The notes under the pieces were generated by a model. That model was not told the origin of the DNA. It made no database searches and was given only the letters and a program-made list of their open reading frames with translations. This document shows, one piece after another, positions 40,868-52,826 of a stretch of DNA of 64,000 nucleotides (the first letter of the stretch is position 1; each line of letters starts with the position of its first letter). Source of the stretch: Eledone cirrhosa (Eukaryota); NCBI GenBank assembly GCA_964016885.1, contig OZ024745.1:16554001-16618000 (forward strand), in the 5' to 3' direction. The position numbers were made by a program, and so were the translations under genes.

Positions 40868-40902
40868 CTTTCTGATGAAGTACTAAAGTCTGAAACGTTA
40901 AG
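40868..40902 (+). ncRNA. Minimal hammerhead-like motif
   Basis: cttt-CTGATGA-AGtAC taaa GTCT-GAAA-CG-TT-aag, with palindromic AACGTT. Confidence 0.55.
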
Positions 40903-40974: not shown

Positions 40975-41960
40975 TCAACGACTAACCACATTACACCTAT
41001 CACAACGCTACCACGTCTACCACTAACATCACTACCACTACAACTTTTATAACTACAACTGCAACCACTAACACTGATAGAATCACTACAGTAACCGTAA
41101 CTTGCAAATTGCCTCAAACGAACTACCAACCCTACTAAAACCATTTACCACACCAAAACCAATATGACCACCTACTCCAGTAACACCAATTCAGCTAATA
41201 CCTCTATAAAAACAACTGAAACCACTTACACCTAACACCAATATAACTACTTACATCACCAGCACTACTAACAACTATACAACCAAGAACACCACGAAAT
41301 AGAACAATGGTAAGCAACACCAGTAACTGAGACCACTTACCTCTAACACCAATATAGCCATTAACACTCCTAAAAACACCACAACTATTATAACAATCAC
41401 AACTACAACACTGGAACCATCACTAAATGGAACCACTTACACCTAACACTTATATATCCATTAACACGCCTAGAAACTACAACTGCCACAAGGACGACAA
41501 CAAGCACAACCCAACCATTGCTAGTAACTGAAACCACCTACACCAAACATCCATAAAAACAGTACAACAACTACAACATCCACAACAATCACAACAACCA
41601 CATCAACCACAACAATCACAACAACCACAAGCATAAAAACACAACAATCATAATAACCACATAACTCTAACCATCACTAGTAACTGAAACCACTTACACA
41701 TGACACCAATATAACTACTAACATCATTAAAATATACTACAACTACAGAAACCATGACAACGATAACTTGGAACCATCACCAGTAACTGAAATTACTACT
41801 TAGCACTAACATCAATATAGAAAATAACAACACTAAAACACACACAGCTGCCATAACAACCACACCAACCACACCACTGTAAACACAAGCACCAACTGAC
41901 ACCACTAAAATAAGAAAAACCAACATTACAACAATCACCATTGTTAAAACTGATGCAACA
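40975..41960. repeat. Degenerate A/C-rich minisatellite, ~100-155-bp units
   Basis: actgaaaccacttacacctaacaccaatata-like anchor at about 41215, 41326, 41430, 41526, 41682 and 41786, separated by (ACA/ACC)n spacers. Confidence 0.7.
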
Positions 41961-43693: not shown

Positions 43694-43771
<78 letters not shown>

Positions 43772-43812
43772 GTATATATATATATAATCTGAGTTTTTCG
43801 AATATTAATAAT

Positions 43813-44003
43813 TGTTTCTACTTTTGGCACAAGGCCAGCAATAACCCAGTACATTACTGGTACTTTATTTTATCGACCCAGTAAGCATGAAAGGCAAAGT
43901 TAACCTCGACGGGATTTGAACTCAGACTGGCAAGGGCCGTAACTCTATGCGTCAAAGCATGGCGTCCAACCCTCAACCGATACTGCCAATCCACCGCCCT
44001 TTT
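43813..44003 (-). mobile_element. SINE with 10-bp TSD inserted in a palindrome arm
   Basis: tattaataat at 43803-43812 and 44004-44013. Confidence 0.9.
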
Positions 44004-44440
44004 TATTAATAATAACATTCGATTCTTTTGCAATTATACAAACAAGCCTCAATTTTATAGCCATGTCAGTAGAATGAACCCTTCATTCTTGCTTTTGTGT
44101 TGGCATGTGAACAGAACTACAGCACTAATGTGTCTGGGTATCACCCTTCATCAGTACAGCTCACTGTTCACCTGCCAAACTGTCAGACCTAGTGAAAATA
44201 TATGCTATTTTCAAAAATATACGGTGACTGATCGGCCTGATTTGCATATTAGCAGACTGGCTGATTAGTCAGATCTGCATATTAGCAGATCCACTGATCG
44301 GTAAGATTTGCATATCAGCAGACTGGCCAGTCAGTCTCCTGTATACGAGCGATAAATGGCCGGCTTTGCCAAATTCAAATAAAAAAGAAAATTTTCGCTC
44401 TACATGGCTGAATACAATAAATGTAATCTGAGTTTTTCAA

Positions 44441-44482
44441 TGTACTGATGAAGGGTGATACCCAGAAACATTAGTGTCTGCA
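44441..44482 (+). ncRNA. Complete type I hammerhead ribozyme
   Basis: TGTA-CTGATGA-a GGGT gat ACCC a-GAAA-CA ttag TG-TC-TGCA: canonical core, GUC triplet, predicted cleavage after 44478. Confidence 0.75.
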
Positions 44483-44642
44483 GTTCTGTTCACATGCCAA
44501 CACAAAAGCAAGAATGAAGGGTTCATTCTACTGACATGGCTATAAAATTGAGGCTTGTTTGTATAATTGCAAACAAATCGAATGTTATTATTAAAAACTC
44601 AGATTACATTTATTGTATTCAGCCATGTAGAGCGAAAATGTT

Positions 44643-44708
<66 letters not shown>

Positions 44709-48082: not shown

Positions 48083-48120
48083 TTTTCTGATGATAGACTA
48101 CCTCTCGAAACGTGAAGAAA
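48083..48120 (+). ncRNA. Degenerate minimal hammerhead-like motif
   Basis: tttt-CTGATGA-tAGA ctacc TCTc-GAAA-CG-TG-aagaa; position 17 is G, so probably inactive. Confidence 0.4.
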
Positions 48121-50360: not shown

Positions 50361-52826
50361 AATTGTTTCTTTATTAACCACAAGGGTTTACATAAAGTAG
50401 ACATTAAGGACAGTACAGGACAATACAGGATGGTACAAATGGGCATTTCTGCGTGTAAAAAAAACAGAGGATGTAATAAAATAACAAAGAAAGATTCCCC
50501 AATAGGGAGGAGACTTCCGAGGGACATTTGTGGAGAAAGCCCATTAAAAGACCACAGTGACCCTGACCACCAGGGAAAGTGCCCTCTCCCAGTTTTCCAC
50601 CTTTAATTTACAGACACATACTCAGAGTAGGCCCATTCACTAGGGCCATACTTGCTTCTCTCACCCATCTTTCAACAAAATGCTGGGAAGAGAGCACTTC
50701 CCTCTCTACCCTGATTTTCCTTTTCAAATGAAATTTGAAAAAGTTAATCAGGGCATCACCGAAGAGGTAAGTGCTCGTCTTCAGCCCTTTCAAACGTGTC
50801 CACCATACTATCTCTTTCGCCATGGCCACCAGACAGATAAAAACTGCCTGCCTTTCCCGGCTAAAGGAAGAGGGCGGGGCAATCCTCACGATGGACTCAG
50901 CTGATAGCTGGATCCGTCCTACACGTGACATCAGGTGTTCGACATAAACCCACAAGTCAGCAATGCTCGGACACTGGACGAGTACGTGCAGGACGGTTTC
51001 GTCGCCCTGTGCGCATCTCGGACATGCCCGGCTGACGGCACCTCCATGCCTGTAGAGTTTATCCCGAACTGGCAAAGCTCCCCGGTAGCACTGCCAGGCC
51101 AGGGATTTCTGGAAGTTGTCCATAGGCCCCGGCCCGAAAGTCCTTCCGAAGAGATTGGCTAGTTGATTTTCGTCGACGCCTAGAGTTTCTCCAAGTACGT
51201 CGTCGCTCTTCCCCTCCAGTAATCCTCTATAGAACGCCAAGGTGGAGTTTCCACCGATCACATTGCCCGATCGGTCGAGGGCTGTGAGCGCCTGAAGATA
51301 TTCCAGTCTCCATCGCTCCCTCTCGGTCTTCGCTTGACCCAGGACTGCAGCTCCATCAAGGAGACGAGCTGGGGAAAAACGTGTCTAGCAAACAGCGACC
51401 ACACCTGATCACCGTCGAGGAAGAGGTGGAGATGTCGTAGCCTGAGCGCGTGTCTGCGCAGTCAGGCGTGGCTTAGGACAAGGTACGACGGTCAGGCGGT
51501 AGTAGATGACGGACGCGATGTACGCATTAGCCACCTCCGCTGGACCTTTCAGGGATAGCTTCCTCTCGGCCCATTTCTGGGTGAGAGAAGCCACCCTGCT
51601 CGTCACCTCGTCCCAGTTTTTGTCCGTCTTGAGGTCCGGACCGAACCAGATCCCTAATAATGTAACCGGCCCGTCCGTCCAGCGCCTGACGACGCGGTTG
51701 GACGTCATGGACCTGCCTCTCCAGGTGCCGAGCTGCAGGCCCATTGACTTTTACTGGTTGATCATTGCTCCTGTCACCGCTTCGTATTCTCTTAGTGTAG
51801 TGCCGATCGCCTGGATGTATTTGGCGTTCGACACCACTACGGTGACATCGTCCGCATATGCTGATACGGATCTTCCGCATCCTAGTTCGCGCGGGACCCC
51901 CCTCAACGTCTCCAGTTTGTGCAGTAATGGCTCGAGAGTCAATACGTACAAGAGGGACGAGAGGGGACATCCTTGGCGGACCGAGCGCATGATGTTGAAC
52001 GGTTCCGAAAGGTGACCGTTCACTCTCACCACAGAGCAGATGTCGCTGTGCATGGCAGCGATCCAGCCTCTGAAGACGGGCCCAAAGCCAGCCGCCCTCA
52101 GTACTGCCGCTAGGTAACGATGGTCGACCCGATCGAAGGCTTTCGATTGATCTAAATTTATCAAAGACCCACCCGTGCCAGGTTCCCTAGCTACCCTCTG
52201 TACGATGTATCGCATGAGGTGGAGGTTGTCGTGGATGGATCTGTCGGGAATGGCACGTTGTTATCGTTATTTTTGTTATTATTAATTTTTGTTTCAGTTG
52301 TGGTGGTGGTGACGTCAGTGGTGTTCGGTGAGGAAGAGTTCATTTTGGTTGAATTCATTTCGACATCACGAGTTAATTAATTTTTTCTTTTGTTTCTGTT
52401 GTCGCGGTGGTGGTGGTGGTGGTGGAGGCTTTAACACCTGCAGTCATTGGTAATGGCGGGAAATGAATGTCTGCCTGAGACAAATTTAAAATATTGCTAC
52501 TGCTTAAATTTTTAGTGTTGGCAAACGTAGTAACATTTACAATGGTGGTGTCGGTGTGAGGTGTTAGTTTGTGAGGAAGGCTCTCAGCTGCTTGGTGCAG
52601 AGGTGAATTAGCCATTTTCTTTTCAAAGAAATTTTTTGATAATCATAAAAGTTTAAATTTTGGGCACAAGGCCCCAATCTTTTTGGGTGTCCTTTTCGGA
52701 AAACAATGTATGTGCGCTTATATACAGTTAACAATAAAATTTTCCATAAATAACAATTTTTAACAAACGGAAATAACAAACCTTTGCGGAGCTCACGATG
52801 ATACGATTTACTACTTAGGTCGCCAG
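50361..52826 (-). mobile_element. Tx1/L1-clade LINE copy A, probably internally deleted
   Basis: RT motifs LDQSKAFDRVDH, VRQGCPLS and AYADD; C-terminal CPRC..ETVLHVLVQC; AATAAA at the 3' end. 52259-52826 looks like a 5'UTR plus ORF1 start; (AAT)n on both flanks. Confidence 0.85.
50608..52258 (-). pseudogene. Disrupted ORF2 (RT plus zinc-binding C-terminus) of LINE copy A
   Basis: ORF pieces 51751..52215, 51409..51744 and 50608..51261; in-frame stop at 51751-51753; deletion near 51457 relative to copy B. Confidence 0.9.

What the first reader, a model, noticed from the sequence alone, without database searches (positions are those of the whole stretch)
44441..44482. Structurally complete hammerhead facing an inactivated mirror copy
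The plus-strand motif has the canonical CUGAUGA/GAAA core, stem I UGUA/UGCA, stem II GGGU/ACCC, stem III ACA/UGU and a GUC site. The reverse-complement arm (44118-44158) has GAAA->GACA and has lost the GUC U. The two visible core lesions both fall in one arm. This is the best candidate for an active ribozyme, although the A-A mismatch closing stem II could reduce activity.
Basis: partly seen in the sequence, partly recalled or inferred. Interest (0 to 1): 0.72.

Follow-up and report, generated by a model that had tools for sequence, protein, structure and literature searches.

The report
Truncated copy of a hammerhead retrozyme
This hammerhead motif is one clipped, likely silent copy of a 438-base protein-free repeat present in over a thousand copies in this animal genome; the family is likely pasted in by Penelope-type retrotransposon enzymes, and its copies' ends pile up just after the predicted cutting site, which suggests the family's RNA cuts itself in the cell.

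Summary
The motif and both lesions in the mirror arm are real. But the 42-mer has 845 exact copies in the genome. It belongs to a 438-nt non-coding repeat with Penelope-type insertion marks: 5' truncation, an inverted 5' partner in 70 of 100 segments, fixed 3' stops, and (TA)n targets. The mirror arm is that ordinary inversion, and its lesions are neutral decay. The A·A pair is family-wide, not a private defect. This copy is a poor candidate for activity: it lacks the 5' strand of the long helix I and the promoter, and a read-through RNA would pair it with its mirror. The family carries a likely snRNA-type promoter matching the host's U1/U2 upstream regions, predicted to start at helix I. Copy 5' ends are about 3.5-fold enriched in the 21 nt after the predicted cut and drop sharply across it (80 versus 14 of 94), indirect evidence of in-vivo cleavage. 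No cleavage or expression was shown and no autonomous partner was found. It is a new member of the animal non-LTR retrozymes. This scan noted such promoter-bearing retrozymes before, in this genome and in others.

The parts
44441..44482 (+). Type I hammerhead core, identical to the family majority; predicted cut after 44478; A·A at the base of helix II; palindromic helix III
44441..44651 (+). Inverted, 5'-truncated arm (unit positions 401 to 180). Starts inside helix I, has no promoter, carries an 8-nt deletion near 44592, ends at the long-tail stop
44003..44440 (-). Main arm, one whole 438-nt unit (unit positions 122 to 118)
44102..44176 (-). Full-length hammerhead with extended helix I, core broken (A14>C at 44132, U16.1 lost)
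44199..44231 (-). Likely snRNA-type promoter: TCAGT box (44231-44227) and TATA-like box (44204-44199), spaced as in the host's U1/U2 genes; predicted start 44175-44172
   Evidence: inferred, transcription untested
44240..44313 (-). Three 33-nt repeats holding octamer motifs (44313-44306 and 44247-44240 exact; 44280-44273 one mismatch)
   Evidence: (family D14)
43805..44002 (-). tRNA-type SINE inserted at unit position ~109 with a short duplication (family name not tested)
43778..43812 (-). 3' tail of the main arm (unit 109 to ~143, short-tail stop)
43696..43786 (.). Left (CA)n/(TA)n microsatellite, likely the target site
44647..44705 (.). Right (TA)n microsatellite, likely the target site

Best explanation
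The motif is the hammerhead of a 438-nt non-coding repeat with over a thousand copies, likely a non-LTR retrozyme copied by Penelope-type reverse transcriptases, and this copy is a 5'-truncated, likely inactive insertion. Shown from sequence: copy number, unit structure, 5' truncation, the head-to-head inversion, fixed 3' stops in microsatellites, the family-wide A·A pair, neutral decay of copies, and the pile-up of 5' ends after the cut site. Inferred mechanism: (1) a master partial tandem is transcribed from an internal snRNA-type promoter that starts at the first bases of helix I and reads into the next unit; (2) the hammerhead cuts a minority of molecules, likely as a double hammerhead through the palindromic helix III and perhaps with protein help; (3) a Penelope-type RT/GIY-YIG protein nicks (TA)n DNA and primes internally at unit 143/148 or ~180; (4) cDNA ends at random or on reaching a cleaved 5' end, and both target strands are often extended and joined head to head, giving the mirror arm. 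Odds: family identity about 0.85; family RNA cleaved in vivo about 0.6; this copy cleaving in its own locus about 0.1.
For: 845 exact copies of the 42-mer, control 0; 2091 with a relaxed core; 1761 exact tail 31-mers. Of 100 tail-chosen segments, 3' ends lie at 143 (26), 148 (18) and 175-181 (29); 70 have an inverted partner and 75 a microsatellite within 6 nt. These match the PLE marks in PMC8557442 and the two RT start sites in PMC11167929. The circular majority unit folds at -167 kcal/mol against -103.5 +/- 6.1 for 60 shuffles. 5' end rate is 0.0172/nt at unit 1-21 against 0.003-0.007 in the seven other bins (p=6e-6) and 0.0047 on 3' strands of other helices (p=3e-5). Of 94 true ends, 80 lie after the cut and 14 before it. 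A double hammerhead lies 8.0 kcal above the MFE, two monomers 19.5. A promoter model from 9 host U1/U2 upstream types has its best unit site 55 nt before helix I, beaten by 0 of 300 shuffles. The two window arms share three private variants, so they have one source. An axolotl retrozyme with a U·U at the base of helix II cleaves (PMC7229834).
Against: No cleavage or transcript was observed. The 3' strand of helix I coincides with unit 1-20, so RT stalling in that helix could make the same pile. Among 68 long segments the pile recurs (14 events/708 nt), but the rate stays high across the cut (7/460), so there is no clean cliff there. The two end sets share some loci. Predicted folds pair the core with helix III instead (probability 0.998 in the predicted monomer transcript), and the unconstrained dimer does not form the double hammerhead. 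Only 1 of 9 Xenopus retrozyme dimers cleaved in vitro (bioRxiv 2026.07.22.740005). The promoter score (15.5) is at the bottom of the true range (15.5-29.9), p=0.023 without the closest U2 gene, and 8 of 127,898 window sites score as high; a 3' box was not significant. No autonomous element sharing the unit was found, and no long arrays: the longest of 501 segments is 823 nt.
Confidence: 0.8

Rival explanations
1. Same family, but its hammerhead is a dead relic: the A·A pair and the alternative pairing killed it in the master, and the 5' end pile comes from RT stalling in the stable helix I hairpin.
For: A·A replaces the direct G10.1-C11.1 closure described as highly conserved in PLE hammerheads (PMC4209133). 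Rfam does not recognise it. The hammerhead fold is 6.5 kcal above the MFE. Helix I's 3' strand is unit 1-20. Cleavage was not needed for insertion in vitro by an anole PLE.
Against: The core is unchanged across three loop-2 subfamilies while helix I changes on both sides of pairs (rows partly chosen on the core). Other helices, including a -65 kcal hairpin, show no pile. In uncleaved RNA the MFE helix continues past the cut to unit 429, yet ends drop there (39 versus 8 distinct junctions in the 10 nt on either side).
Confidence: 0.3
2. The copies are truncated pseudo-LTR ends of an autonomous Penelope element, not an independent non-autonomous family.
For: All insertion marks are PLE-like. In three loci (L048, L072, L076) an element end joins a PLE coding fragment directly.
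Against: The unit is followed or preceded by itself in partial tandems, with no ORF between two hammerheads (L243, L244). The joined fragments are only about 35% alike where they overlap. The one PLE family examined has an unrelated 3' end in 29 of 30 loci, the 30th being the junction locus itself.
Confidence: 0.1
3. One reading: this copy is a functional ribozyme at its locus, kept intact while its mirror was inactivated.
For: The core equals the family majority, and both core lesions lie in the other arm.
Against: 60 of 86 copies have an intact core by default, and the core decays at the background rate (3.7% versus 3.5%, p=0.70). There is no promoter on that strand and no distal helix I. 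A read-through RNA is predicted to lock it in a duplex (stem II probability about 1e-18).
Confidence: 0.07

Closest known systems
Animal non-LTR retrozymes of coral, mussel and axolotl (PMC7229834; parts 2-4 of 6 and passages read; supplement not seen)
   Same: Type I hammerhead in a repeat unit of a few hundred bases, no protein, strongly self-paired predicted circle, palindromic loop 3 suited to dimers, coexistence with PLEs; axolotl HHR_Amex2 has a mismatch (U·U) at the base of helix II.
   Different: Mismatch is A·A. Copies are dispersed partial tandems (at most 823 nt among 501 segments), not long arrays. The core is predicted to be blocked by self-pairing, unlike most metazoan circles in that paper. 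RNA was not examined.
Penelope-like elements, EN+ clades (PMC4209133 results and discussion; PMC8557442 passages; PMC11167929 parts 1-2 of 4)
   Same: 5' truncation, inverted 5' copy, two main 3' stops 37 nt apart, (TA)n targets, hammerhead in the repeat, extra nucleotide after A9.
   Different: No RT/GIY-YIG ORF; long helix I with an internal loop rather than a minimal hammerhead; a second extra A before G12; partner not identified.
Newt satellite 2 (Coats, Zhang and Epstein 1994; paper not held; seen only as a title and one passage in PMC2220036)
   Same: Hammerhead repeat with an internal snRNA-type promoter.
   Different: 438 against about 330 nt; promoter here is predicted from host U1/U2 likeness only; promoter details could not be compared.
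Retrozymes as non-autonomous PLE derivatives (bioRxiv 10.64898/2026.07.22.740005; parts 1-3 of 5 read; supplements closed)
   Same: Same proposed dependence on PLEs; dispersed monomers.
   Different: That study sampled no mollusc in the parts I read and argued from co-occurrence and pLTR homology; here the evidence is insertion anatomy and end mapping.

Membership tests
Type I hammerhead ribozyme | CUGANGA, GAAA and UH core around three helices | tested here: met
Type I hammerhead ribozyme | G10.1-C11.1 pair directly before G12 | tested here: not met
   An A lies on both sides; 94 of 100 listed copies have it and 0 of 100 lack the extra base. Mismatch precedent in axolotl.
Type I hammerhead ribozyme | Extended helix I with an internal loop for contact with loop 2 | tested here: inconclusive
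   Present in full copies, 5' strand absent in the finding's copy; the tertiary contact itself was not tested.
Type I hammerhead ribozyme | Match to the Rfam hammerhead models | tested here: not met
Type I hammerhead ribozyme | Site-specific self-cleavage | not testable with these tools
   Only indirect: 5' end pile
Animal non-LTR retrozyme | One type I hammerhead per 150-450-nt multi-copy unit with no retroelement ORF | tested here: met
   438-nt unit, 845-2091 core matches
Animal non-LTR retrozyme | Tandem units, each with a hammerhead | tested here: inconclusive
   Two hammerheads one unit apart in L243 and L244, but no segment reaches two full units among 501
Animal non-LTR retrozyme | Highly self-paired predicted circle | tested here: met
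   z=-10.5; partly due to the palindromic 33-nt repeats
Animal non-LTR retrozyme | Expressed as linear and circular monomer RNA | not testable with these tools
   No raw RNA reads were available
Penelope-like element | 5' truncation, inverted 5' copy, 30-40-nt tail, microsatellite targets | tested here: met
Penelope-like element | RT plus GIY-YIG ORF | tested here: not met
   None between tandem units; works like a PLE passenger, is not an autonomous PLE
Penelope-like element | Unit homologous to the pLTR of an autonomous PLE | tested here: inconclusive
   Not in the one family examined; other PLE families in the genome were not followed to their ends
snRNA-type promoter (newt satellite 2 layout) | Proximal boxes matching host snRNA genes in sequence and spacing | tested here: met
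   moderate strength (0 of 300 shuffles; p=0.023 without the closest gene)
snRNA-type promoter (newt satellite 2 layout) | Octamer upstream | tested here: inconclusive
   Unit has two exact octamers; host U1/U2 upstream regions have none, and 2 of 7 U6 upstream types have one at -76/-77
snRNA-type promoter (newt satellite 2 layout) | 3' box downstream | tested here: not met
   Best site scores 4.3-6.5 against 10.6-25 for true boxes, p=0.21-0.25

The most novel reading that the evidence does not exclude
The genome records hammerhead activity in vivo. An A·A-closed hammerhead that Rfam misses cuts a minority (roughly a fifth) of templates, and those cut ends set the 5' limit of Penelope-made insertions, while an snRNA-type promoter starts the RNA exactly at helix I. 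Mapping 5' ends of copies would then be a general DNA-only assay for which Penelope and retrozyme hammerheads are active.
Probability: 0.45. Interest if true: 0.55.

Novelty: new member of a known kind. Interest (0 to 1): 0.33.

Why it matters
The single copy matters little. The family bears on two points that the papers I read leave open: what Penelope-associated hammerheads do in vivo, and whether Penelope enzymes move retrozymes. PMC11167929 found no RNA reads ending at the cut site and no need for cleavage in vitro; PMC8557442 calls the function unclear. Here the insertion anatomy points to Penelope enzymes, and the 5' end pile is a cheap signature of cleavage. If it holds, the tolerated core also widens to A·A at the base of helix II. 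I found no paper on such a family in cephalopods or on this end signature, but most subscription papers are outside the library.

Tried and rejected
Rfam scans: no hammerhead hit. Sequencing runs: no RNA holder listed. Contigs of four runs of unknown kind hold the family, but none of the listed pieces bridges the 44440/44441 junction, which proves nothing either way. Autonomous partner: a search with one GIY-YIG fragment gave a large Neptune-like family (label from the recalled linker motif) with an unrelated 3' end; a Pfam family search failed because the accession is not in the library. 3' box: looked convincing by eye, not significant (the first attempt was misaligned and crashed). Pol III reading (T-run at unit 168-178 as terminator): dropped because the proximal boxes resemble U1/U2 and not the U6 upstream regions seen. 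SINE-bearing subfamily: rejected, because the SINE 5' junctions differ between loci. Selection on individual copies: rejected. Sequence look-up in earlier findings gave one unrelated note. The newt promoter paper was not held.

Full report
Observation. The stretch 44441-44482 holds the motif as described. It was the only hit of my type I descriptor on both strands of the window, and 1 of 100 shuffles gave a hit. It begins a 157-nt arm that is 96% complementary to 44003-44158. The mirror has A14>C, has lost U16.1, and has a C>U change that keeps stem I paired. Rfam does not recognise either.

It is a repeat. A search of the window's 3.0-Gb genome with 44003-44440 gave 3626 candidates; of 40 scored, the 39 others are 93-95% identical. 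The 42-mer has 845 exact copies and the reversed control none; a relaxed core has 2091. The unit is 438 nt. I number it from the base after the predicted cut. The window holds a minus arm (unit 122 round to 118, a SINE, then tail 109-143) joined head to head with a plus arm (401 to 180), with microsatellites at both ends. The arms share three private variants, so they came from one template. The genome looks octopod-like; that label is recalled from its SINE and echoed by earlier scan notes, and I did not test it.

Penelope-type marks. I took 100 segments chosen by an exact tail 31-mer: the first 100 of 1761 matches, all on contig C1. Their 3' ends fall at unit 143 (26), 148 (18) and 175-181 (29). 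Seventy have an inverted partner at the 5' end and 75 run into a microsatellite. PMC8557442 (passages) lists these as PLE features, and PMC11167929 (parts 1-2) ties the 30-40-nt tail to two internal RT start sites. The mirror arm is therefore the family's usual insertion form. The longest of 501 distinct segments in 326 loci is 823 nt; L243 and L244 hold two hammerheads one unit apart with no ORF between. PLE coding fragments are common in the flanks, and three join an element end directly. The one family I followed has an unrelated 3' end, so the partner is unknown.

The ribozyme. The plus-arm motif is the family majority. Of 100 listed core matches, 94 have the A before GAAA, 6 have point changes there, and none has the canonical spacing. 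Two other loop-2 subfamilies keep it. PLE hammerheads usually have one extra base after A9 and then G10.1-C11.1 (PMC4209133); a U·U at this place cleaves in axolotl (PMC7229834), and several other families in my loci show U·U or A·U there. Full copies extend helix I by an internal loop and 12 pairs. Pair counts support it modestly: 5 pairs change on both sides in 40 hand-picked rows (1 of 500 shuffles) and 4 in 33 rows (114 of 500). Related rows inflate such counts, and helices II and III were fixed by the search pattern in most rows of the second set. Helix III is a 10-bp palindrome (-8.8 kcal as a duplex, +1.7 as a hairpin), and a double hammerhead is 11.5 kcal better than two monomers. All unconstrained folds still prefer pairing the core with helix III. 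The majority unit folds as a very stable circle (z=-10.5).

This copy. It lacks the 5' strand of the long helix I; its hammerhead fold is 10.5 kcal above the MFE against 6.5 for a full copy. Among 86 copies not chosen on the core, 26 have at least one lesion in 11 core bases and 5 have two or more; the core rate of 3.7% equals the 3.5% elsewhere. The dead mirror is ordinary decay.

Evidence that the family RNA is cut. In the 100 tail-chosen segments, 22 ends fall at unit 1-21 (0.0172 per nt at risk) against 0.003-0.007 in the other bins. The 3' strands of other predicted helices show 0.0047. A second search for copies truncated near the site gave 634 matches; I mapped the first 100, dropped 6 internal indels, and found 80 ends at 1-21 and 14 at 416-438. 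After merging identical junctions there are 39 in the 10 nt after the cut and 8 in the 10 nt before. Against this: helix I's 3' strand covers the same bases, the two sets share loci, and in 68 long segments the pile recurs but the rate stays high across the cut. I put in-vivo cleavage at about 0.6. Only 1 of 9 frog dimers cleaved in a recent test, and an anole PLE hammerhead needed protein.

Promoter. The host's U1 and U2 genes share a TCAGT box at -56 to -58 and a TATA-like box near -30. The unit has the same pair; a two-box model from 9 upstream types scores its best site at unit 328, above all 300 shuffles, but at the low end of true promoters and at p=0.023 without the closest U2 gene. The predicted start, unit 384-387, is the beginning of helix I (383). 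An octamer lies about 74 nt upstream, as in 2 of 7 U6 upstream types. A 3' box was not supported. In the window the promoter faces the dead arm, and the intact core has none. Newt satellite 2 has an snRNA-type promoter (passage in PMC2220036; original not held).

Verdict. This is a new member of the animal non-LTR retrozymes that behaves as a Penelope passenger; cleavage and circular RNA are untested. Earlier notes of this scan, read only after the promoter test, report the same kind of element in this genome and others; whether any is this exact family I could not tell. Supplements of the cited papers were not seen and may list similar hammerheads. Interest 0.33.

Noticed in passing
window 43805-44002 and about 30 loci (e.g. 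L002, L019, L022, L312): An abundant SINE (27 hits in the window) has inserted again and again at unit position ~109, a TTATTA site, with different 5' junctions. In L010 and L013 the inversion lies inside the SINE, suggesting re-mobilisation. SINE density alone may explain the hotspot.
   Followed up: partly
L048:2011, L076:1715, L072:893: An element end is joined directly to a Penelope coding fragment, possibly by co-insertion or template switching.
   Followed up: partly
L277-L306, about 440 nt after the ORF: A large Neptune-like PLE family (16,175 candidates) has a variant hammerhead-like core, UUGAUAA...GAAAC.
   Followed up: no
many loci, e.g. L171, L149, L170, L166: Several other abundant hammerhead-like families have U·U or A·U at the base of helix II.
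   Followed up: no
window 40872-40896 and 48087-48111 (+): Two decayed hammerhead-like cores within a 75-nt repeat at 76% identity.
   Followed up: no
window 50611-51384 (-): LINE fragment with a zf-RVT domain in a GC-rich block.
   Followed up: no
L327-L346, L402-L431: The host's U1 and U2 genes have a bipartite TCAGT plus TATA-like promoter without an exact octamer, while the U6 upstream regions seen lack the TCAGT box.
   Followed up: partly
window 41036-41873: Degenerate ~100-nt repeat rich in ACA triplets.
   Followed up: no
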